From: a virus
Reading direction: 5' to 3' (one strand)
UHGV virus genome: UHGV-0248979
Length of the DNA stretch: 64,000 bases
How positions within the stretch are numbered: the first letter of the stretch is position 1; each line of letters begins with the position of its first letter. Made by a program: the position numbers and the translations under genes. The notes under the pieces are model-generated. The model was not told where the DNA came from. It worked only from the letters and a program-made list of their open reading frames with translations, and ran no database searches. Below, one piece after another: positions 67-64,000 of this stretch.

Positions 67-900
67 TTATTTCGCCAAGTCTGCTTCTTTTACAAAGATG
101 CCGTCGGCGTTCAGGTAACCTTTACGGTCTTTGATTTCATGCCAGGCTAAAGAGAAGCAATGGCGAATATCCAATTTATAATACAAGGCGATACGAGCAA
201 GATGGGCTAAACCCAGGCTAACGAAATCGAAACCATGATCTTTACCTTCCATAAAGGTTGTGGCAAAACTTTCAATAGCGTGAAGGTATTGTTGATGTGG
301 GTATCCAGCGTTGTTTAAATTTTCTTCAACTTCAGCTACATCTTCCACGTCTAAGCGTAGACCAGACTCGATGCAGTCTTCTGCCACTGTAAGGTAACCA
401 GAATTCGCATCCCCTAATTCGATGATGTTTACCAGAACCACCAACGCATCGCCGATACCATCCATGATCATTTCAGGTTTGTTTTTACTGATGCCCGCCG
501 CAATTTCACCTAACTCTTCAAAGAACTTCGTGATTTGGGTTTCCAGTTTGCCGTTATCGAGAATCCCACGTTCTTTAGACCAACCTTTAACGAGTTTTAC
601 ACATTTTGCGATCGTGCAAACTAGAACAGATTCTGTATGCATTACCGTACCGTTATAAACGGCATCGGTAAGCTTAATAGGCGCTACAATCGTTTCAATA
701 TCCAGTTCTTGATTACCGGTGTGGCGTTTACCTTCTACACGAATACGGCTGGTACCAGGGTTTACACCAATTGTGTAAATAGCGTCGAACTGTACTGCAT
801 TCTCATTCAGAGCGCGCAGTTGCGCGTTAACTTCTTCCAGGTGTTGGCCAGGATTAACCACGATGTTGTAAATAGTGTTGATGTCAAAACGTTCGCCCAT
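67..900 (-). CDS. MazG-like nucleoside triphosphate pyrophosphohydrolase domain protein (277 aa)
   Basis: Motif FFEELGEIAAG...DGIGDALVVLVNI resembles MazG/dCTPase EExxE...D metal-binding helices; start moved to ATG at 898-900 with GGAG 7 nt upstream. Confidence 0.5.
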   Translation of the reverse strand: MGERFDINTIYNIVVNPGQHLEEVNAQLRALNENAVQFDAIYTIGVNPGTSRIRVEGKRHTGNQELDIETIVAPIKLTDAVYNGTVMHTESVLVCTIAKCVKLVKGWSKERGILDNGKLETQITKFFEELGEIAAGISKNKPEMIMDGIGDALVVLVNIIELGDANSGYLTVAEDCIESGLRLDVEDVAEVEENLNNAGYPHQQYLHAIESFATTFMEGKDHGFDFVSLGLAHLARIALYYKLDIRHCFSLAWHEIKDRKGYLNADGIFVKEADLAK

Positions 901-6778: not shown

Positions 6779-7620
6779 TAGATTAATCCCATACTTTCAC
6801 TGACGCTCGTAATGTCGAACGTTGTGTCGTTAAAGTCGATGTTTTCTACAATAGAAACCACCAGATTAGGAAGCCATTCTGAATGGGGTGGTGTAATAAC
6901 CCGGCCGTTCATAACGTAGTAATGCAAGAACGGTAGTCCCATCGAATGGCAGTACGATAACACATTACCTAAGCAACTCCCGTCAAACTTCAAGAGTCGG
7001 AGCTTACGCAGCAATGCGTTTTGAAATGCACCGTTCGCGTAATTGCTAAACTCGCCAGGTCGATAATCCGTGCCCCCGTAGATACTCGCCTTTAATCGCC
7101 GACCGCGTTGTATACATTCAGCCCCAGTCAGGGTTCGTAATAAACGAATGTCTGGATATTCAGTTTCCAAACGACCCAAAGCGTTTATTCCGTAGCCCTT
7201 GTAGAACAGATAGTCTACGATCCTTAAATAATGATAGTAACCTTCCAACGTTAAAAACTGACCGTGAATTGTGTCGAATTTAGCACCGTTAGGTTGCGCG
7301 TAGAAGTTACTGATCATTTTCCCTACGGTAGTGCGACCGTTAGAGTAAAGATTAAGATGGTTGATACCGTCGGTAAAAGGGAGTTTTTCGGGTAACGCAC
7401 AAACGTAGCCTAAACGACGAAGGTATAGGACATAAACAAAGCGCTCATCAGGAGTAAGCACAATGTTCGACGCGCTAACGTATGTATTAGGATTATTTCG
7501 GCCAGGCTGATAACCCAGCGTTAAAGCCAATGCTTGATTGTCTTCGCTCTGACTTTTGATCTTCTTTAATACGGAACGCAGTAATTGTGGTTCGGTCATA
7601 ACCGGCCTCTTAAATTGCAA
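6778..7620 (-). CDS. hypothetical protein (280 aa)
   Basis: ORF. Confidence 0.5.
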   Translation of the reverse strand: MQFKRPVMTEPQLLRSVLKKIKSQSEDNQALALTLGYQPGRNNPNTYVSASNIVLTPDERFVYVLYLRRLGYVCALPEKLPFTDGINHLNLYSNGRTTVGKMISNFYAQPNGAKFDTIHGQFLTLEGYYHYLRIVDYLFYKGYGINALGRLETEYPDIRLLRTLTGAECIQRGRRLKASIYGGTDYRPGEFSNYANGAFQNALLRKLRLLKFDGSCLGNVLSYCHSMGLPFLHYYVMNGRVITPPHSEWLPNLVVSIVENIDFNDTTFDITSVSESMGLI

Positions 7621-8884
7621 AATAGTCTTCCACGATTTTATCGGTAGACTGGTAACTTACACTGCCTGCAGCAATCACGTAATTACGTTTCTCAGTGGTC
7701 AGTAGTGCCTGAATCGCATTTACGCCCGCGTAGGTGTAAAGTTTAAGTTCAGTCATCTCCGGCGTGATGTTCTTCGCTTTGTCCCACTTTGCATCTAATC
7801 CTTTAAATAGCGTTAATAGGCGAGTACCATACGTTTTGAAACTGACACCAGGTTCAACCCGAAGGTTAGCCATGAGGTTTTGGATAACGGTGGTTGCGAT
7901 CTGGGTTCCTTGTCCTGGTTGGAGTTTATCCAGATAGTATTCCGTTGAATCCAGATTACCTGTCGCTGCCGCCTGAATCATCAACTCGCCGTACAGTACC
8001 TCTTTTGCTTGTGTGTCGGTAATCGCTTGAAGCATCGGTTCGATTTTAGCCGGTAAACCATAACTGTTCAGTTTGGTAGATAGGCCATAAATCAGTGCTG
8101 AAGAGGTATTAATGTCTAACGTGGAGAAACTGTCGCTGCCTTTAAAGCTGTTAATCAGGTTATCGATGGCTAAGAAGTCGTCTAAGTCTTTGTAGCTGTC
8201 GAAAGTATGTTGTACGTCATCAACGATCGAGGTGATTTGATAACGCATACTGTTGACTTCGGACATAAACCCGTTGACTTCTTGACTAACTTCCGAGGGG
8301 AGTTTAGCCAATTGCCCAGCAATGTTCATCGTCCCTTCGAGACGTTTTTTCACCGAGTTAAAGTCAGTACCGATACCGGATAAAACGGAGTCGGTTAAGC
8401 TGCCGATACTATCCCACCCTTTACCTAACAGCTTCCCCATCCCACCTGGACTTAGGTAGTCTAGTGCTTTTAGGCCATCTTCATCCTTTTTCTTAAAGGG
8501 TTCAGAAACGTCACGCTTTTGTGGGTCGAGGACAGGAAGCGTTTCTTTGGTATTAGATGCAAAACCGGGAACCTTTTGTCCTGGCGACACCCCGGAGGCT
8601 GAACTCCCCGCAGTCTTAGTTCCCCCAACACTGGCGGTATCGCTACCGCCAAAAAGGTTACCAATTTTACTGGTCAGCTCGTTGCCGCCGCTAATGAGTT
8701 TGTTGAAAGTTTCACCAGCGCGGTCTGATAGTCGGCTGACGCTATCGACCGTGTTCTTAATACCACGCTCCGCATTTTCCACTGTTGTTTGTACGCGGTT
8801 TGTGGCGCTCTTTGCCGTATTAACGGAATTATCGATTGCCGACTGACCTTTATTTATCTGACTGGTTATTTGGTCGATTTTCAT
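7610..8884 (-). CDS. hypothetical Ser/Thr/Gly-rich protein (424 aa)
   Basis: ORF; start moved to ATG with SD GGAGA. Confidence 0.5.
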   Translation of the reverse strand: MKIDQITSQINKGQSAIDNSVNTAKSATNRVQTTVENAERGIKNTVDSVSRLSDRAGETFNKLISGGNELTSKIGNLFGGSDTASVGGTKTAGSSASGVSPGQKVPGFASNTKETLPVLDPQKRDVSEPFKKKDEDGLKALDYLSPGGMGKLLGKGWDSIGSLTDSVLSGIGTDFNSVKKRLEGTMNIAGQLAKLPSEVSQEVNGFMSEVNSMRYQITSIVDDVQHTFDSYKDLDDFLAIDNLINSFKGSDSFSTLDINTSSALIYGLSTKLNSYGLPAKIEPMLQAITDTQAKEVLYGELMIQAAATGNLDSTEYYLDKLQPGQGTQIATTVIQNLMANLRVEPGVSFKTYGTRLLTLFKGLDAKWDKAKNITPEMTELKLYTYAGVNAIQALLTTEKRNYVIAAGSVSYQSTDKIVEDYFAI

Positions 8885-9695
8885 TCTGGTCTCCAATTTG
8901 GTATTCGTCAAGGTTTACCGTGACCTGAACTTCGTAGATCTTATTGTCTTTCTGACGCCTTAAGGTCAAAAGGATTTCGAAACTACGAACATCAATTGCC
9001 TTGAGTACCCTCATAAACCATTTCCAGGAAAACTTCTTTTTTAACCTTAGATTGTGCTGCATATTGTGCCGCAAATCATTTCGTTTCGACGGCGTCTGCT
9101 CACAGTTAGCGGGATCGTTAACGAAGTTTGTGGAAAGACGGTACCACCAATCCGCATTCATTTTCATGTTTGCGAAGATAGTCCAAGTTAACCGAGATAA
9201 CGGATGTACCATCATCTTTGCGGTCTCACCACAGTTCTGGAAATAACGGTTCAGTTGCGCCGTTGCAGACTCCTTAGGTCGTTCGTCGTTATCTTCGAAC
9301 AAATCCCGAGCGAGATCTTCACGCACGCGTGTGGTAACTTCAGATACGGTTTTTGTTTTGAAGTGTCCTCGGTAAGTGGTTACACAAATCCGCAGTGTTT
9401 CCACTCCGGTAATCACCAACCCTTCTGTAAAACCTCGCCAGGTAAGATCGACAGGTAGTGCAGGGATGTTACCTGAACTCAGCTTCGTGGAGATACGTTG
9501 TATTCGATCGTCCATCGTTGCTTTTGAACGTGTTTTAAATTCTGGAGACAGAATATGTTTGGCGACGGCGAGTTTGTAATCCGAAGGCTTCCATCCGATC
9601 AATTCTTTATAATTCCAATAAAGCGTTTGAAGTGGTCCGCCAGCACGTTCGTCTTCAGCGTCCACGACCACACTTACTTTTTTGCTATCCATCAC
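8850..9695 (-). CDS. hypothetical protein (281 aa)
   Basis: ORF. Confidence 0.5.
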   Translation of the reverse strand: MMDSKKVSVVVDAEDERAGGPLQTLYWNYKELIGWKPSDYKLAVAKHILSPEFKTRSKATMDDRIQRISTKLSSGNIPALPVDLTWRGFTEGLVITGVETLRICVTTYRGHFKTKTVSEVTTRVREDLARDLFEDNDERPKESATAQLNRYFQNCGETAKMMVHPLSRLTWTIFANMKMNADWWYRLSTNFVNDPANCEQTPSKRNDLRHNMQHNLRLKKKFSWKWFMRVLKAIDVRSFEILLTLRRQKDNKIYEVQVTVNLDEYQIGDQNENRPNNQSDK

Positions 9696-9725
9696 ATCAC
9701 CTTGTTACAAGGGGTTACTGGTTTG

Positions 9726-10274
9726 TTAAATAGGGCGTTCTAAAAGGTAGTGTTCGATCAGTGTTTCCAACTCCCGGAATAAATGCGCTGTTTGGTTTAC
9801 CAACGCTTTGTCTTCGTCGGACTCCGGTTTAAGGAACGTCGATTCATAAGGTTGAATTAGCGCGAGTAATTTACCCAATTTATAAGCGGCAACCTCAGGA
9901 CTGGACGTCCCAAAATAAGTGTCTAGCCATCGGTATTCTGCCAAGTCGTTTCGTTTATTTAAAGCATCGGGCAATGGTAGCCATTCAATTGAACTCCTGT
10001 TAATTGCTCGTTGGTATTCGTTAATGAGAAATGCTAAACGTTGATAAAGAATGTCAATGTTATTAACGCGCAATTCGAGGAAACCGCGAAGGCTGGGGCG
10101 AAAGGGTTCTTCATTTATGTTTAAAGGCAATGTAAGCAATTGTAAGCCGGTAAAGACTCTGACATAGGGGTTGTGGGTGTTCTTATGGAACTCCTGCTTC
10201 AAAGACTCTCTGAGGGCTTTTAAACGGTTATTCTCTAACCGTTGTTTAAAACGAGTTATTATTCCTGTTAACAT
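9726..10274 (-). CDS. hypothetical protein (182 aa)
   Basis: ORF. Confidence 0.5.
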   Translation of the reverse strand: MLTGIITRFKQRLENNRLKALRESLKQEFHKNTHNPYVRVFTGLQLLTLPLNINEEPFRPSLRGFLELRVNNIDILYQRLAFLINEYQRAINRSSIEWLPLPDALNKRNDLAEYRWLDTYFGTSSPEVAAYKLGKLLALIQPYESTFLKPESDEDKALVNQTAHLFRELETLIEHYLLERPI

Positions 10275-10345
10275 AATTCACTCCTAAAGAATGTCTCACG
10301 TAGATAATATCTGTCTGACTTCTTTTTGAAATTGAGGTAGTAAGA

Positions 10346-19394: not shown

Positions 19395-19430
19395 TCTAAT
19401 AACTCCAATGGTGTTACACCTGGATAATAT

Positions 19431-20099
19431 CTATCTAAGAATATTTTTAATGAAAAAAGGATCGGCTGTAAACTCCTTCACTTGTGAGTCATAACCCGAA
19501 TGTATTTGATCGCTACTGAGCAAATACTGGTCTAGGTCGTGCGGAAGAATCCAAGAATCACCTTGCTTAAAAATACCATAATCTGCTGTTCCTGCGGAAA
19601 AAATGATTTCCTCTGGAAACGAATAGACACGGCGTAAGGCAAGATCGGATGGCTTTAACACGATTAATCGAACGGGATGTTGACTGACTGCCTCTTTAAT
19701 AAACTGTTCACGATTAAACCAAATTATTTTTTCGGGGTAAGTTTCGAATTCAGCCCATGCCCGCGTGATAACTAATTTGGAAATCTTTCTCAATTCTTCA
19801 GAACGCTCTGCGTAGCCGATGCACTCCTTGCGTACTTCATGATTTTCTATCGATGTTGTGAATTTTTGGAATAGGTGTTGTTGGAAAAAGCCGTTCTCCG
19901 GGATATCACAACCCGCGTTGTATAGTGCAATGATCTCCCACAACAACGAAAGAGAAAACACAAATGCTAACTTTTCCACAACTTCCCAATCTTCGGAGTA
20001 AGGGGCTTTAAAGCCCCAATACTGCCGTGCGTTATACATAAAGTGAGTTTGTAAAAACCGAGGGGCTTTTGACAAGACCTCACTATAAACGATCAGCAT
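19431..20099 (-). CDS. hypothetical protein (222 aa)
   Basis: ORF. Confidence 0.5.
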   Translation of the reverse strand: MLIVYSEVLSKAPRFLQTHFMYNARQYWGFKAPYSEDWEVVEKLAFVFSLSLLWEIIALYNAGCDIPENGFFQQHLFQKFTTSIENHEVRKECIGYAERSEELRKISKLVITRAWAEFETYPEKIIWFNREQFIKEAVSQHPVRLIVLKPSDLALRRVYSFPEEIIFSAGTADYGIFKQGDSWILPHDLDQYLLSSDQIHSGYDSQVKEFTADPFFIKNILR

Positions 20100-37546: not shown

Positions 37547-37571
37547 ACTGAACTCTCACCTAAGTAATATA
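37547..37571. promoter_or_regulatory. conserved 25-nt AT-rich element CACCTAAGTAATATATATCTGAAAT (copy 1), promoter-like
   Basis: Near-identical (24/25) to copy at 41946-41970; 39 nt upstream of the minus gene start at 37508. Confidence 0.4.
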
Positions 37572-37612
37572 TATCTGAAATTATTTTTAATGTTGACGAA
37601 CAAAAAATAAAA

Positions 37613-41576: not shown

Positions 41577-41945
41577 GATTTACTCGCTAATCTCAATAAA
41601 GGGAAGTCTATTATTATGGATTGTAAAAGAGGTATAAGGAAGTCACTACGTTCCTCTGGGAAGAGTATGTCGGTATACTACGTATACCTCCGCTATTTAT
41701 ATCCGTATACATAATGCCCCCTACCCCCTACCGGTATCCCGAGTAGCAGAATAAAGGGACAGACTGTAAAATTTTAGTACCTGTTATCGGAAGGTACTAA
41801 ATGGAGTGTAGTCTTTAAGCCGTTTGTGCAGCTCATTGAGACTTTCTTTTTTTAGTAGACATGATCTGTCTCCCCAAATGGTTTAATCAATCCGTTTCGA
41901 ATGAAACGTGTCCGTAGGGGCTGAACTGGCACTTCAGTCCCTATT

Positions 41946-41970
41946 CACTTAAGTAATATATATCTGAAAT
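41946..41970 (+). promoter_or_regulatory. conserved 25-nt AT-rich element CACTTAAGTAATATATATCTGAAAT (copy 2), candidate promoter for the virion gene block
   Basis: 26 nt upstream of the ATG at 41996; contains TATATAT -10-like core. Confidence 0.4.
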
Positions 41971-41995
41971 CAATTCCGATCTAAGGAACGTCCCG

Positions 41996-59798: not shown

Positions 59799-59808
59799 TT
59801 TAATTACA

Positions 59809-59839
59809 GGAGGAACTATGTTTATGGACGTAGTCCTCC
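59809..59839 (+). terminator. hairpin GGAGGAACTA...TAGTCCTCC followed by T-run
   Basis: Approx. 9-bp stem, then ATTCTTTTTTATTTT. Confidence 0.5.
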
Positions 59840-59865
59840 ATTCTTTTTTATTTTAAGGATACGTG

Positions 59866-60258
59866 ATGGCGATCAGTGTTAAAAATGTGCGTGACCGAAT
59901 CACCAACGTAGAGAACCAAATGGCAACTGGCCCACGTGTTGATCCGCAAGTTGCGTCGAAAGCACATAACGCTGCTGATTCATTTTCAGGTTGGACACCC
60001 GGTCGATTAGATTGTGGAGGTAGCTGTAGCTGGACATGCTCAAACGGTTGTACGCATGGTTGTACGAGTTGTTCAGGTACATGTACATCGGTGTGCGTAG
60101 GAAGCTGTTCCTCTGCGTGTGGTAATCAATGCAGTGGTTGTAGCGGAACGTGTTCGGGTGGTTGTTCAGGATGTAGTGGGACTTGTAGTGGGGGATGTGC
60201 TGGACGTTGTTCCTCGGGGTGTAGTGGTTCTTGTGCAGGTGGTTGTTCTAACCCATAA
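59866..60258 (+). CDS. cysteine-rich leader+core small protein 1 (130 aa), candidate radical SAM substrate
   Basis: N-terminal ~55 aa non-Cys leader, then CGGSCSWTCS and ~26 Cys in CxxC/CxxxC repeats rich in Ser/Gly/Thr; SD AAGGA. Confidence 0.6.
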   Translation: MAISVKNVRDRITNVENQMATGPRVDPQVASKAHNAADSFSGWTPGRLDCGGSCSWTCSNGCTHGCTSCSGTCTSVCVGSCSSACGNQCSGCSGTCSGGCSGCSGTCSGGCAGRCSSGCSGSCAGGCSNP

Positions 60259-60277
60259 AAAATAAGGATCAATTCGA

Positions 60278-61192
60278 ATGGAAGAACTTACTAGACCGAC
60301 GGTATCCGATAAGCTTTACAGTAATCCGAGAACGTTAAACGTGATTACAACATCCAAATGTAATCTGGACTGTAGCTTCTGCGGCGGAGCCTATTACATG
60401 CATAGAGAGGATACAACCGCAGAAGTACAAAAGGAAAGTATTATCGAGGCGCTGGAAAATAACCCGACTATCACAAATATCCAATGGTCAGGGGGCGAAC
60501 CATTACTTGCCACGCGTAAAATTGATACCCTTATAGAAGAGATAAGGGAGAAGTATCCTCGTTGCGAACATTACCTGTATACCAATGGTTTAAAAATGCG
60601 TAAATCGCATCTACCGTTGTTAAAGGGTTTTGATAGTATCTTTTTTAGCATGGATGGATTCAAAGAATCAGAGCGTCCGTTCATGCGGATTATCGAAGAA
60701 AAACAATACGAGGTTTTGGAGACAATTTACGAATTGAAAAATATTCGTACTTGGGCGGTTTTGACACGCGAGCGTATTGGGGATAAACGTTGGTACGAAG
60801 ATATAATTGCGTTACATAACCACATTTACCATTATGGTTTTTGTGAGATGTCGCTGGTTTTGGACAAAAACATGCCAAAACCGTTATCTCCCGATCACGT
60901 TATGAACTTTATTTACGGGTATTTTAGAATTCAGGAGAATATAGAAAGACTGAATTCGTCCAATCGAAGTGAATGTGCGTTTACGCTAAATGCGTTATTT
61001 GATGAACCCTGTAACACATGTAGTCGTTGTTTTCGCATTGAGTCTGACGGTGCCCAGAACCAAGTAAAGAACGTTGAAATCGTAACGCAACACGGCTGTA
61101 GTGACTTGGCCAGAAAGGTTGGATTAGATGCTTACGACTATATACGTCGTGTGGTAGGGGCTAAGAATAGAGTCTCAGAAAAACTACGATAA
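60278..61192 (+). CDS. radical SAM enzyme, paralog 1 (304 aa)
   Basis: CNLDCSFC (CX3CX2C) Fe-S motif at residues 28-35, GGEPLL SAM-binding motif, extra C-terminal Cys cluster CNTCSRC. Confidence 0.8.
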   Translation: MEELTRPTVSDKLYSNPRTLNVITTSKCNLDCSFCGGAYYMHREDTTAEVQKESIIEALENNPTITNIQWSGGEPLLATRKIDTLIEEIREKYPRCEHYLYTNGLKMRKSHLPLLKGFDSIFFSMDGFKESERPFMRIIEEKQYEVLETIYELKNIRTWAVLTRERIGDKRWYEDIIALHNHIYHYGFCEMSLVLDKNMPKPLSPDHVMNFIYGYFRIQENIERLNSSNRSECAFTLNALFDEPCNTCSRCFRIESDGAQNQVKNVEIVTQHGCSDLARKVGLDAYDYIRRVVGAKNRVSEKLR

Positions 61193-61250
61193 TTTTACAG
61201 AAAGTGAATTATAATGTGTCCTAGGGGGCACTAAACCAGTAGGTATTAAA

Positions 61251-61649
61251 ATGGCGATTGGTTTATCTTCTTTAAAGGCCCGGCTAGATAACATAGACTC
61301 TACTGCATTAAAAAATACAGGTGCGGTGCAGAACTATATTCGTGGTAAAGCCACTAATAATAGCGATCTGTTTGGAGGACAGCCGAGAAATCACTATGAC
61401 TGTGGGGGTAGCTGTAGCTGGACGTGCTCAAGTTGTTCGGGCGGCTGTACCGGCAACGCCTCCGGCGGCTGCGGTTCTTCCTGTTCAGCGAACTGTGTTT
61501 CAGGATGTAGTACAGGTTGCACAGGTTGTAGCAGTACCTGCTCAGGAGGGTGCACAGGTAATTGCTCGGGCGGTTGTTCAAGTAGTTGCACCGGAACATG
61601 TTCAGGTTCATGTCGAGGCGGATGTCAGCAATCGTGTACTGGAAGATAA
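61251..61649 (+). CDS. cysteine-rich leader+core small protein 2 (132 aa), candidate radical SAM substrate
   Basis: Leader SLKARLDNIDST..., then HYDCGGSCSWTCSSCSGGC and long Cys-rich core. Confidence 0.6.
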   Translation: MAIGLSSLKARLDNIDSTALKNTGAVQNYIRGKATNNSDLFGGQPRNHYDCGGSCSWTCSSCSGGCTGNASGGCGSSCSANCVSGCSTGCTGCSSTCSGGCTGNCSGGCSSSCTGTCSGSCRGGCQQSCTGR

Positions 61650-61652
61650 GAA

Positions 61653-61862
61653 ATGATAAGTCTTAAAAACATACGCGACAGATTAGTAACGGCGGAGGGA
61701 TATATCACCACCGCTAATGCAAACAACTATATTGCAAACCAAGGAACGGTTTCCTCAACCAACAATCTCGCAGGATTACCTTTAAGTCATTATAATTGTA
61801 ATGGCGGATGTAGTTGGTCGTGCAGCGGTAGCTGTAGTAAGGGGGCGGGGGGGGGTAAGTAA
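61653..61862 (+). CDS. cysteine-rich leader+short-core protein 3 (69 aa as read); likely continues into next frame via G-tract slippage
   Basis: Leader ISLKNIRDRL..., HYNCNGGCSWSCSGSCS, terminates right after G5CG9 tract. Confidence 0.5.
   Translation: MISLKNIRDRLVTAEGYITTANANNYIANQGTVSSTNNLAGLPLSHYNCNGGCSWSCSGSCSKGAGGGK
61841..61855 (+). repeat. G5-C-G9 homopolymeric tract (slippage/frameshift-prone)
   Basis: GGGGGCGGGGGGGGG seen directly; removing one G joins the peptide-3 frame to the downstream 61863-62319 frame. Confidence 0.9.
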
Positions 61863-62319
61863 GCCCTCTAGCGGTGGTTCTACGCCAACCCCTTCAAGAC
61901 CAACCTACGACAACAAAGCCGTTGTTTATGTTGAGTCTAAGCTACACGCTAAAGATACTGTTCGTATCAATTTCTCTACTGGGGCTGTCTTTATTCAATG
62001 CGTAACGTTAACCGGTAGAGAGAAACCGATAAGGGTCTTTAAATCGTTACTGTCTGGAAAGTCCTACGCCTACCCTCAAGTTGCAATGGGTAATGGTATC
62101 ACTGTTAATTTTACAGACGCGGCTAGTTTTAAGATAGACTCTATCGGTAATGCATCTTCTGCTTCTATCTCATTAGAAGTATTAAGTAATTCCGGCGGAA
62201 GCATGGCGATTAAGCAGCAACCGAGTAAATCAAACGGCTTTACTGCAGAATTTGAAGTTACCGGCAGGCAATGGCGTGGCGGGTTCTATACCTTGAACGT
62301 CAGATTGACCGTAAAATAA
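61863..62319 (+). other. out-of-frame continuation ORF encoding a ~150-aa Ser/Pro/Thr-linker plus globular domain, reachable from peptide 3 by 1-nt frameshift
   Basis: +1 frame is open from 61801 through the G tract to the stop at 62317-62319. Confidence 0.5.
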
Positions 62320-62331
62320 TTGGAGTAATCA

Positions 62332-63219
62332 ATGAAAAACGATTTGCATTTAGCCTATAAAACAATTTTCAACCACCCACTTCATATTTCTTCCCCCGAT
62401 TCAATACGCGCTCATTTGGAAGATAAAGTTCGTTTGTTAACCCAGTTACCTGGCGAATGGCCCAAAGTGCGTGGTCGTTTTTTTACCGATCGCAATAACT
62501 ATTCAGTAGAAAACACTTTTAAAATACGCGATCTGACAGCAGAAAGCGTAGTGGTGTTTACCGGTGATTCAGATTTACGCGGTAAATTGGTTGACGGTAA
62601 ATATTTCTTTAGTGACGGTATTCTGAATAATTCTGTAGATTTGGAATTGTTCTTTACGCCATTTAAAGAGTTGAATGCGAAGCCTGTAGCACGACGTTGG
62701 TGGTCTCCAGACTATCTTGGTTCATTCCCGTACTTTTATGCCCTGGTTCCTGTAGAAACAAAAAACTATGTTGATACTGAACCGTATATTGAAATAGAAG
62801 GTTACGAGGAACTTGGCATCAACTGTTTAGCAGATCTGATGGCGTACAGTTACAAATTTATGTGGGATCGTGAACGTTCAGTATGGGTTGCCCTTACAGA
62901 TGAACATGAAATCACAAAACGTATTCGTAAACCATGGATGCAGCATTTAATTCAAACACGTATTGGTGAACATCCGTCATCGGAAGCAGATTTAGCGAAA
63001 CTTGTTAGTTTCTTAATGACGAAAGTCACGTTAACTGATGAAGAAAAAGCGGCAGTGTCGGCGGTATTGGAACGTAACGTAACGTTAGCGGATCTAGAAC
63101 GTTTAAACGTGCGTTATAAAGACCTTAATCGTATTATTGAGGCTTACAATTCACCGTTTGTATTAAAACCTGGAGTTAACGCTTACGACGATCCTTTGTT
63201 ATCCATTGGCTATATTTAA
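62332..63219 (+). CDS. hypothetical protein (295 aa) inside the radical SAM cassette
   Basis: ORF with SD-like GGAG upstream; no motif recognised. Confidence 0.55.
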   Translation: MKNDLHLAYKTIFNHPLHISSPDSIRAHLEDKVRLLTQLPGEWPKVRGRFFTDRNNYSVENTFKIRDLTAESVVVFTGDSDLRGKLVDGKYFFSDGILNNSVDLELFFTPFKELNAKPVARRWWSPDYLGSFPYFYALVPVETKNYVDTEPYIEIEGYEELGINCLADLMAYSYKFMWDRERSVWVALTDEHEITKRIRKPWMQHLIQTRIGEHPSSEADLAKLVSFLMTKVTLTDEEKAAVSAVLERNVTLADLERLNVRYKDLNRIIEAYNSPFVLKPGVNAYDDPLLSIGYI

Positions 63220-63241
63220 AAAATAGATGGACTCACCTGCA

Positions 63242-64000
63242 ATGACAACCGACGTAGAGCCAAGGTTATCGAATCGTTTATACAATAAACCCACCGTATT
63301 GTCCGTAGTTGCTACATCCAAATGTAATCTGGACTGTAGCTTCTGCGGCGGAGCCTATTACATGCATCGTGAAGATTCTCCGCGAGAGTTTCAACGTGAA
63401 CGAATTTTGAAAGCGTTGGCGTCTAACCCAACCATTACTGAAATTCAGTGGACTGGCGGTGAACCGCTACTGGCAACTCGAAAGATTGAGGCGTTTGTCG
63501 ACGAATTAAAAACGATCCGTCCTGAACTCAAACACCAGATGTTCACGAACGGTTTAAAAATGCGTAAATCGCATCTACCGTTGTTAAAACAATTCGATGG
63601 TATATATGTTAGCATCGATGGGTTTAATCTTTCTGAACGGCCTTTTAAGCGCTTTATTGATGATAATTGTCATGAAGCGTTAGAAGTAATTTACAGCTTG
63701 AATAATGTTAACACCTGGGCTGTTGTTACGAGGGAGAATTTATCCAATAAAAGATGGCATGAAGATATCATTCAATTACATACTGCTATCTATCATTACG
63801 GTTTTCGTTCCATGTCCTTATTACTAGATAAAAACATGCCAAAACCGTTATCTCCCGATCACGTTATGAACTTTATTTACGGGTATTTTAGAATTCAGGA
63901 GAATATAGAAAGATTAAACGTTCTAAATTCTAGAGACTGCGGTTTTATTGTAAACAGATTCTTCGATCATGCTTGTAATGTCTGTAGCGAAAGTCTCAGG
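63242..64000 (+). CDS. radical SAM enzyme, paralog 2 (3' partial, 253 aa in window)
   Basis: Manual translation (not in ORF track because no stop in window): SKCNLDCSFCGG, GGEPLL, C-terminal CNVCSE; blocks of nucleotide identity with paralog 1. Confidence 0.75.
   Translation, partial: MTTDVEPRLSNRLYNKPTVLSVVATSKCNLDCSFCGGAYYMHREDSPREFQRERILKALASNPTITEIQWTGGEPLLATRKIEAFVDELKTIRPELKHQMFTNGLKMRKSHLPLLKQFDGIYVSIDGFNLSERPFKRFIDDNCHEALEVIYSLNNVNTWAVVTRENLSNKRWHEDIIQLHTAIYHYGFRSMSLLLDKNMPKPLSPDHVMNFIYGYFRIQENIERLNVLNSRDCGFIVNRFFDHACNVCSESLR

What the first reader, a model, noticed from the sequence alone, without database searches (positions are those of the whole stretch)
60350..63913. Mosaic blocks of perfect nucleotide identity between the two radical SAM paralogs
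The two radical SAM genes are clearly diverged overall (many amino acid differences) yet contain stretches of exact nucleotide identity: 54 nt (60350-60403 vs 63314-63367, covering the CNLDCSFCGGAYYMH cluster motif), 38 nt (60587-60624 vs 63551-63588) and 84 nt (60866-60949 vs 63830-63913). Exact identity including synonymous positions within diverged paralogs suggests recent gene conversion or recombination between the copies, or an unusual nucleotide-level constraint.
Basis: seen in the sequence. Interest (0 to 1): 0.45.

Follow-up and report, generated by a model that had tools for sequence, protein, structure and literature searches.

The report
Gene-conversion patches between phage enzyme paralogs
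Two old, diverged copies of a radical SAM enzyme gene in a giant SPN3US-like phage keep three short stretches letter-for-letter identical because the copies repeatedly overwrite each other there, which is a clean but ordinary case of gene conversion.

Summary
rSAM A (60278-61192) and rSAM B (63242 to beyond 64000) align without gaps at an offset of 2964 nt. They share perfect runs of 84, 54 and 38 nt, and the next longest run is 8 nt. Outside the runs synonymous sites are saturated (pS about 0.8; 4 of 28 fourfold sites identical). Inside them, 54 of 54 degenerate codons are identical (Fisher p = 3e-18).

Related two-copy phage genomes from independent assemblies have identical runs at the same three places, but with shifted ends. 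All 6 substitutions that distinguish these genomes inside the blocks occur in both paralogs of the same genome. Single-copy relatives (SPN3US, L004) show normal synonymous divergence in the same segments, so the sequence itself is not under nucleotide-level constraint.

The blocks are therefore islands of ongoing, short-tract, bidirectional gene conversion. They sit in the three longest conserved peptide motifs, including the CX3CX2C cluster loop. They also coincide with breakpoints of exchange between phages, and with A/B chimeric ORFs on short metagenomic contigs; those chimeras could be real recombinants or assembler artefacts.

This is a new example of a known process, of moderate interest. 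The genes lie in a virion-fibre module that also encodes CXXX-repeat cysteine-rich proteins and a third radical SAM maturase.

The parts
60278..61192 (+). Radical SAM paralog A (304 aa). It is an extra copy, absent from SPN3US and other single-copy relatives, inserted between the first and second Cys-rich genes.
   Evidence: ORF. Pfam PF04055 at 52.6 bits against a cut-off of 29.5. CX3CX2C motif plus invariant C245, C248 and C274. The model's best Foldseek matches are SuiB, CteB and anSME. Synteny with SPN3US.
63242..64000 (+). Radical SAM paralog B, cut by the window end. It is 307 aa in sister genomes, or 312 aa from the upstream ATG at 63227. It is the positional ortholog of the SPN3US small rSAM.
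   Evidence: B is 66% aa-identical to the SPN3US protein and A is 56%.
60350..60403 (+). Block 1, copy A (54 nt, TSKCNLDCSFCGGAYYMH): the [4Fe-4S] cluster-binding CX3CX2C loop.
   Evidence: Exact identity with 63314-63367.
63314..63367 (+). Block 1, copy B.
   Evidence: The H codon at gene position 124 is A-type in this lineage and B-type (N) in L002, L003 and L004.
60587..60624 (+). Block 2, copy A (38 nt, GLKMRKSHLPLLK).
   Evidence: Exact identity with 63551-63588. In L002, L006 and L003 the tract is 47 nt long, and 4 sites that differ between L002 and L003 are mirrored in both paralogs.
63551..63588 (+). Block 2, copy B.
60866..60949 (+). Block 3, copy A (84 nt, KNMPKPLSPDHVMNFIYGYFRIQENIER).
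   Evidence: Exact identity with 63830-63913. It is the junction of every A/B chimeric contig.
63830..63913 (+). Block 3, copy B. Its 5' edge (the KN codons) is A-type in this lineage only.
   Evidence: Three scaffolds of about 225 kb end exactly at its last base.
59863..60258 (+). CXXX-repeat Cys-rich protein 1 (131 aa), the presumed rSAM substrate, directly upstream of A.
   Evidence: phrog_6085 at 3e-40. TIGR04114 at 20.1 bits against a cut-off of 20.
61251..61649 (+). CXXX-repeat Cys-rich protein 2 (132 aa).
   Evidence: phrog_6085 at 3e-39. TIGR04114 at 22.3 bits.
61653..61862 (+). Short Cys-rich protein 3 (69 aa), ending in a variable G run at 61847-61855.
   Evidence: phrog_6085 at 8e-25. 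G-run lengths of 9, 10 and 11 in otherwise identical genomes.
62332..63219 (+). Conserved 295-aa protein of unknown function (phrog_8030) directly upstream of B. It is part of the 2.9 kb that separates the direct repeats.

Best explanation
A and B are old paralogs of a small twitch/SPASM-like radical SAM enzyme in the virion-fibre module of an SPN3US-like jumbo phage. Homologous recombination between the two direct copies, 2.96 kb apart, repeatedly copies short tracts (about 40-95 nt) from one gene into the other. This is ectopic gene conversion.

It persists only in the three longest stretches where protein-level purifying selection has kept the two genes alike. Those stretches are 21, 15 and 32 conserved residues, and they include the CX3CX2C cluster loop. 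There, enough uninterrupted identity remains for strand invasion, and each conversion restores perfect identity. These segments therefore evolve in concert while the rest of the genes have diverged to saturation.

Shown: the identity, the saturation of the flanks, the repetition of the pattern in other genomes, the shared lineage-specific substitutions, the shifting tract ends, and the lack of constraint in single-copy genomes.

Inferred: the molecular route (heteroduplex formation and repair, or double crossover, during phage replication), and the idea that a minimum length of identity explains why an 11-residue conserved motif (GGEPLLATRKI) is not converted.
For: (1) Flank synonymous divergence between A and B is saturated (pS 0.73-0.82, dN about 0.41), against pS = 0 over 32 synonymous sites inside the blocks, in each of four lineages.

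(2) The two-copy genomes L005, L002 (= L006) and L003 have exact A-vs-B runs at the same three places with different ends. In gene coordinates: window 73-126, 310-347, 589-672; L005 76-126, 310-347, 584-678; L002 64-123, 301-347, 595-678.

(3) Inside the core blocks (167 nt) there are no A-vs-B differences in four of the five genomes and one in L005. The window differs from L002 at 5 sites, identically in both paralogs. All 6 polymorphic core sites are concordant between paralogs.

(4) Edges give direction. B of the window lineage carries A-type KN (589-594) and H (124). B of the L002 lineage carries A-type ITT (67, 70). These are A-to-B events, independent in each lineage. The in-block tree nests A inside the B clade, which suggests B-to-A for the cores.

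(5) Outside the blocks A is sister to all B and SPN3US-like proteins. Inside the blocks it clusters with the B of its own lineage.

(6) The single-copy genomes L004 and SPN3US differ from the blocks at 23 and 32 of 167 sites, with in-block pS equal to flank pS.

(7) The three blocks lie within the three longest conserved amino-acid stretches. The fourth longest (11 aa) has 9 of 11 codons different.

(8) The same sequence was recovered by different assemblers and from different samples.
Against: No reads or experiments are available, so the recombination itself is inferred from its products.

Short-read assemblers can erase a few real differences between near-identical repeats by bubble popping. 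The word 'perfect' could therefore be slightly overstated, although L005 retains one A/B difference.

Between lineages the blocks are less diverged (pS 0.125) than either flank (A 0.41, B 0.74; binomial p = 4e-4). Neutral conversion within a genome does not predict this. It needs an extra factor, most simply exchange between phages focused on the blocks.
Confidence: 0.88

Rival explanations
1. The blocks are selected recombination 'linkers'. Their identity is maintained because it lets the phage, or co-infecting phages, shuffle the four variable segments between the two maturase paralogs. This would generate chimeric enzymes with new substrate preferences for the fibre proteins.
For: Chimeric ORFs with junctions exactly in the blocks exist in metagenomes: A-block3-B (P0002, P0058; 5 contigs from 5 samples), B-block3-A (P0004, on a MEGAHIT k141 contig) and A-block1-B-block3-A (P0003). 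The segments between blocks have different histories between phages: A_win/A_L002 is 30% diverged before block 1 and 8-9% after it; B_win/B_L004 is 8-13% diverged before block 2 and 31-33% after it. Blocks are less diverged between lineages than their flanks.
Against: All of this is also expected as a passive by-product of identity. The chimeras sit on short contigs from the same projects in which 225-kb scaffolds break exactly at block 3, so they may be assembler paths. Selection for evolvability is a second-order effect, and nothing here shows that it acts.
Confidence: 0.1
2. A nucleotide-level functional element (RNA structure, regulatory site, or target of a common guide or antisense RNA) is embedded in the blocks and must be identical in both genes.
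For: The blocks are perfectly conserved, and they diverge less between lineages than their flanks do. Block 2 contains a 5-bp palindrome (ATGCG-N5-CGCAT), with a minus-strand fold z-score of -3.3.
Against: Single-copy relatives change the same codons freely. The palindrome is broken in SPN3US. There is no Rfam hit. Fold z-scores for blocks 1 and 3 are not significant. There is no promoter or terminator signal inside the blocks and no third copy in the window. Tract ends move between lineages.
Confidence: 0.03
3. A single historical event produced the pattern. Either A was created or acquired as a chimera carrying B-derived patches, or one conversion occurred in the common ancestor. There is no ongoing process.
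For: The in-block amino-acid tree places A inside the B clade.
Against: After a single event, later substitutions would be private to one copy. Instead, 6 of 6 core polymorphisms are shared by both paralogs. Tract ends differ even between the window and L005, which are only 1-2% diverged. At least 4-5 separate events are needed.
Confidence: 0.04
4. Assembly artefact: collapse or chimerism of two strains or two repeats created the identical stretches.
For: The window and its relatives are short-read metagenome assemblies. Assemblers visibly struggle at block 3, with scaffold ends and chimeric contigs.
Against: The identical two-copy structure appears in more than 10 samples, in NCBI, ENA and IMG/VR records, and in a k141 MEGAHIT contig. 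Collapse cannot turn 57%-identical sequence into identical sequence. The flanks on both sides of every block are copy-specific.
Confidence: 0.02

Closest known systems
Ectopic (interlocus) gene conversion and concerted evolution of bacterial paralogs, for example tufA/tufB in Salmonella and the rRNA operons of E. coli (PMC8022953 surfaced; the rest is from general knowledge)
   Same: There is non-reciprocal homogenisation between dispersed copies in one genome. Paralogs cluster by genome rather than by orthology, and lineage-specific substitutions are shared by both copies.
   Different: Here the homogenised part is not the whole gene. It is three islands of 38-95 nt within genes that are otherwise saturated at synonymous sites. 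The genome is a jumbo phage, and the tract ends can be seen moving between very close strains.
Recombination at short conserved motifs that swaps segments of T-even phage tail-fibre adhesin genes (the 'His boxes' of gene 37/38; Tetart, Desplats and Krisch 1998, from memory), and the classical modular or 'linker' view of phage mosaicism
   Same: Short conserved stretches inside otherwise diverged phage genes act as crossover points. The segments between them have different histories.
   Different: The partners here are two paralogs in the same genome as well as different phages. The genes encode enzymes rather than adhesins. The conserved stretches are catalytic-core motifs.
CXXX-repeat peptide and radical SAM maturase systems (NCBIfam TIGR04114 target, TIGR04115 maturase; PapB-type ranthipeptide maturases)
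   Same: The neighbourhood has Cys-rich CXXX-repeat proteins and a 440-aa SPASM-type rSAM whose best hits are TIGR04115 (8e-34) and PapB (1e-32). The small paralogs A and B resemble peptide-modifying rSAM enzymes in fold.
   Different: The maturase scores far below the equivalog cut-off (118 vs 350 bits). The system sits in a phage virion-fibre module. The 'peptides' are 69-132-aa proteins with a conserved N-terminal domain. There are two or three rSAM genes. No chemistry is known.

Membership tests
Interlocus gene conversion / concerted evolution | Identity tracts significantly longer than the flanking divergence allows, including at synonymous sites | tested here: met
   54/54 vs 33/97 codons identical, p = 3e-18. 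No permutation out of 200,000 reached the observed runs.
Interlocus gene conversion / concerted evolution | Phylogenetic incongruence: paralogs group by genome inside the tracts and by orthology outside them | tested here: met
   Difference matrices and NJ trees.
Interlocus gene conversion / concerted evolution | Lineage-specific substitutions shared by both copies of the same genome | tested here: met
   6 of 6 core polymorphic sites are concordant. Four L002/L003 differences in block 2 are mirrored in both paralogs.
Interlocus gene conversion / concerted evolution | Independent events: tract end points differ among lineages | tested here: met
   (L024 block 2 spans 307-347).
Interlocus gene conversion / concerted evolution | Direct observation of conversion or recombinant molecules | not testable with these tools
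   Only assembled contigs are available. The chimeric contigs are ambiguous.
Radical SAM superfamily (PF04055) | CX3CX2C cluster motif and a Pfam score above the gathering threshold | tested here: met
   C28, C32 and C35 are invariant. Scores are 52.6 and 49.7 bits against a threshold of 29.5.
SPASM/twitch peptide-modifying rSAM maturases | C-terminal auxiliary-cluster cysteines and fold similarity to SuiB, CteB or anSME | tested here: inconclusive
   Three invariant C-terminal Cys (C245, C248, C274). Top Foldseek matches are SuiB, CteB and anSME, with E 3e-11 to 3e-8 and TM 0.53-0.61. No NCBIfam model reaches its cut-off.
CXXX-repeat rSAM target/maturase system (TIGR04114/TIGR04115) | The target protein matches TIGR04114 and the maturase matches TIGR04115, both above cut-off | tested here: not met
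   The targets are marginal, at 20.1 and 22.3 bits against a cut-off of 20. The 440-aa maturase scores 117.6 bits against 350. The system works like this family, but membership is not shown.
Site-specific or programmed diversification (shufflon, DGR) | Inverted repeats with a recombinase, or a template/variable repeat pair with a reverse transcriptase | tested here: not met
   The repeats are direct. There are no inverted repeats in the window. The blocks are invariant rather than variable.

The most novel reading that the evidence does not exclude
The three identical blocks may be more than passive conversion islands. They may act as maintained crossover sites that let this phage lineage recombine the variable segments of two fibre-protein maturases, both within a genome and between co-infecting phages. 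On this reading the A/B chimeric genes seen in metagenomes are real variants that alter how the CXXX-repeat virion proteins are cross-linked.
Probability: 0.1. Interest if true: 0.6.

Novelty: new member of a known kind. Interest (0 to 1): 0.35.

Why it matters
It is an unusually clean natural record of short-tract gene conversion in a phage. The tracts are 38-95 nt, their ends move between strains only 1-2% apart, and every new substitution in them has been copied to the other paralog. That sets a practical bound on how much uninterrupted identity this phage's recombination needs: about 38 nt is enough, while a 33-nt conserved motif was not homogenised.

It also shows how conserved catalytic motifs become crossover points for exchange within a gene.

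There is a practical consequence too. The blocks break or mislead short-read assemblers at this locus, so chimeric 'radical SAM' proteins in public protein sets should be treated with caution.

The biology around the finding may deserve more attention than the conversion itself. Cys-rich CXXX-repeat proteins and up to three radical SAM enzymes sit inside a jumbo-phage virion-fibre module, and this is essentially unstudied.

Tried and rejected
- Megablast of 59800-64000 against cultured phages found nothing. All 65 tblastn-positive cultured phages have one copy only, so two-copy comparisons had to come from IMG/VR and metagenome scans.
- An Rfam scan, RNA folding of each block on both strands and a promoter/terminator scan gave no support for a nucleotide-level element.
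- A search for a third copy of block 3 in the window found none. A search for its 62-nt core in IMG/VR found only the two known two-copy contigs.
- Literature searches for SPN3US or Seoulvirus radical SAM, jumbo-phage Cys-rich proteins, CXXX repeats and phage paralog conversion found nothing specific.
- I tried to use the chimeric proteins P0002, P0003, P0004 and P0058 as proof of recombination and rejected them as decisive. Their contigs are short. Both halves are 97-100% identical to one strain, which fits either recombination within a genome or misassembly. Sister scaffolds from the same project end exactly at block 3.
- Recent duplication followed by diversifying selection is rejected because the flank dS is saturated.
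Full report
**What is there.** The window is part of an SPN3US-like jumbo phage. tblastn of the first radical SAM (rSAM) gene finds 65 cultured phages of Salmonella, Erwinia, Escherichia, Cronobacter and Proteus, the best at 56% identity and each with a single copy. The finding lies at the end of a block of very large virion-structural genes encoding proteins of 1440, 1394, 1728 and 435 aa. The gene order is:
- Cys-rich 131 aa (59863-60258)
- rSAM A (60278-61192)
- Cys-rich 132 aa (61251-61649)
- Cys-rich 69 aa (61653-61862)
- a 172-aa ORF
- a conserved 295-aa protein (62332-63219)
- rSAM B (63242 to beyond the window end)

In sister genomes B is 307 aa and is followed by a 440-aa SPASM-type rSAM. 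SPN3US has the same order but lacks A and the 172-aa ORF. B is therefore the positional ortholog, and A is an extra copy found only in one sub-lineage.

**Checking the observation.** A and B align without gaps at offset 2964. They are 67.2% identical in nucleotides and 63.6% in amino acids.
- Outside the blocks, identity is 57% overall and 35% at third codon positions. Only 4 of 28 fourfold sites and 33 of 97 same-amino-acid degenerate codons are identical.
- Inside the blocks, 54 of 54 codons and 17 of 17 fourfold sites are identical. Fisher p = 3.4e-18.
- None of 200,000 permutations of synonymous states reached the observed runs of 28, 18 and 12 codons.
- Nei-Gojobori pS outside the blocks is 0.73-0.82, which is saturated, with dN about 0.41. 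Inside the blocks pS is 0.

The genes are old paralogs, and the blocks are a real anomaly.

**Related genomes.** Scans of IMG/VR and metagenomes gave four further two-copy genomes:
- L005, a sister strain
- L002 and L006, which are identical to each other
- L003

They also gave four single-copy genomes, L004 and L007-L009. In every two-copy genome A and B are identical at the same three places, but the ends differ. In gene coordinates:
- window: 73-126, 310-347, 589-672
- L005: 76-126, 310-347, 584-678
- L002: 64-123, 301-347, 595-678

Inside the 167-nt core, A equals B in each genome, apart from one pending difference in L005. The window differs from L002 at 5 sites, from L004 at 23 and from SPN3US at 32.

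All 6 sites that vary among two-copy genomes inside the core have the same state in A and B of each genome. This includes an S-to-T amino-acid replacement. Four differences between L002 and L003 in block 2 are mirrored in both paralogs.

In single-copy lineages, in-block synonymous divergence equals flank divergence: 0.57 vs 0.60 and 0.73 vs 0.77. The sequence as such is therefore not constrained. Its identity depends on there being two copies. This is the signature of repeated gene conversion, and it needs at least four or five separate events.

**Direction and limits of the conversions.** The edges of the tracts show direction. In the window lineage, B carries A-type KN (589-594) and H (124). 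In the L002 lineage, B carries A-type ITT (67, 70). These are A-to-B events.

Outside the blocks the A clade is sister to all B and SPN3US-like proteins. Inside the blocks A nests with the B of its own lineage, within the B clade. This suggests B-to-A for the cores. Conversion therefore appears to run in both directions.

The blocks lie within the three longest conserved amino-acid stretches, of 21, 15 and 32 residues. The next longest is GGEPLLATRKI (11 residues, 33 nt), and it has 9 of 11 codons different. My inference is that conversion survives only where protein-level selection has kept enough uninterrupted identity, and that about 38 nt is sufficient. On the AlphaFold model (pLDDT 79), the blocks map to three elements:
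- the cluster-binding loop
- the loop and helix after strand 97-102
- the loop and helix after strand 190-195

These are barrel-core elements.

**Exchange between phages.** The segments between blocks have different histories.
- A_win vs A_L002 is 30% diverged before block 1 and 8-9% after it.
- B_win vs B_L004 is 8-13% diverged before block 2 and 31-33% after it.
- The differences between B_L002 and B_L003 cluster around block 2.

The blocks are also less diverged between lineages (pS 0.125) than either flank (0.41 for A, 0.74 for B; p = 4e-4). Neutral conversion within a genome does not predict this. The simplest reading, which is an inference, is that the blocks are also the preferred crossover points between co-infecting phages.

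**Chimeras.** The protein search returned four ORFs that are exact mosaics with junctions in the blocks:
- P0002 and P0058: A up to block 3, then B
- P0004: B up to block 3, then A
- P0003: A, then B from block 1 to block 3, then A

Their contigs are 1.4-8.4 kb and come from seven samples. The A-then-B form is a deletion product that joins the Cys-rich 131 gene, the chimera and the 440-aa rSAM. Both halves are 97-100% identical to one strain.

These could be real recombinants. However, three scaffolds of about 225 kb from the same project end exactly at the last base of block 3 in B. Assemblers clearly treat the block as a repeat, and I cannot decide between the two readings without reads. The two-copy structure itself is secure. 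Ten further genomes, one of them a MEGAHIT k141 contig, carry A and B with 0-3 differences from the window over the 759 nt compared, and the same blocks.

**Rivals rejected.** A functional nucleotide element is not supported:
- no Rfam match
- no significant fold for blocks 1 and 3, and a small palindrome in block 2 that is broken in SPN3US
- no promoter or terminator signal in the blocks
- no third copy

Recent duplication is excluded by the saturated flank dS. A single ancestral event is excluded by the concordant substitutions and the moving tract ends.

**What the genes are.**
- A and B are rSAM proteins (Pfam PF04055 above threshold) with invariant CX3CX2C and three invariant C-terminal cysteines.
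- The nearest solved folds are the peptide-modifying enzymes SuiB, CteB and anSME.
- The three Cys-rich proteins form phrog_6085 and marginally match the CXXX-repeat rSAM target model TIGR04114.
- The best hits of the 440-aa enzyme are the CXXX-repeat maturase TIGR04115 and PapB, far below cut-off.

The locus therefore works like a RiPP-type Cys-rich-protein maturation system embedded in a virion-fibre module. Membership of those families is not shown, and I found no literature on it.

**Verdict.** This is a well-resolved new example of a known process, of moderate interest.

Noticed in passing
window 61847-61855 (G9), with ORFs 61653-61862 and 61801-62319: A homopolymeric G run ends the 69-aa Cys-rich ORF. 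In otherwise identical genomes it is G9, G10, G11 or interrupted by an A. G11 (L026) fuses the Cys-rich ORF to the 172-aa ORF, giving a 222-aa product. This could be phase variation, slippage or homopolymer sequencing error. The 172-aa segment is an insertion specific to this lineage and is absent from L002, L004 and SPN3US.
   Followed up: partly
window 59863-63219 and L005 9871-11193: The virion-fibre module encodes three CXXX-repeat Cys-rich proteins (phrog_6085) that share an N-terminal domain and a DCGGSCSW motif. It also encodes two small twitch-like rSAM enzymes and a 440-aa SPASM rSAM related to CXXX-repeat and PapB maturases. This points to RiPP-like chemistry applied to phage structural proteins. 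I found no publication on it.
   Followed up: partly
L001 (SPN3US NC_027402) 7040-8069 and 9001-9915: The RefSeq annotation misses the Cys-rich genes. The 130-aa and 68-aa ORFs are unannotated, and the 134-aa ORF is replaced by gp100, called in another frame. The small rSAM gp102 is started 120 nt downstream of the conserved ATG.
   Followed up: partly
L010-L012 and L015-L018; L026-L028 (contig ends): Public protein collections contain A/B chimeric rSAM ORFs whose junctions are the identical blocks. Three scaffolds of about 225 kb end exactly at the last base of block 3 in copy B. The blocks are a hazard for short-read assembly at this locus.
   Followed up: yes
window 60010-60043 vs 61398-61431: A 34-nt patch is 91% identical between the first two Cys-rich genes, over the DCGGSCSWTCS motif. 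It may be a decayed or weaker conversion island between those paralogs.
   Followed up: no
window 10296-10326, 19416-19446, 37556-37586, 41945-41975: A 31-nt AT-rich motif (TCACCTAAGTAATATATATCTGAAAT...) recurs four times at 71-100% identity, at or beside ORF boundaries. It is possibly a phage promoter or regulatory motif.
   Followed up: no
A vs B orthologs across genomes (L002, L003, L005 vs window): Divergence is strongly uneven between neighbouring genes of the same genome pair. A_win/A_L002 has pS 0.41 while B_win/B_L002 has pS 0.74. L002/L003 shows the reverse, with A at 0.17 and B at 0.07. This indicates frequent mosaic exchange in the module.
   Followed up: partly
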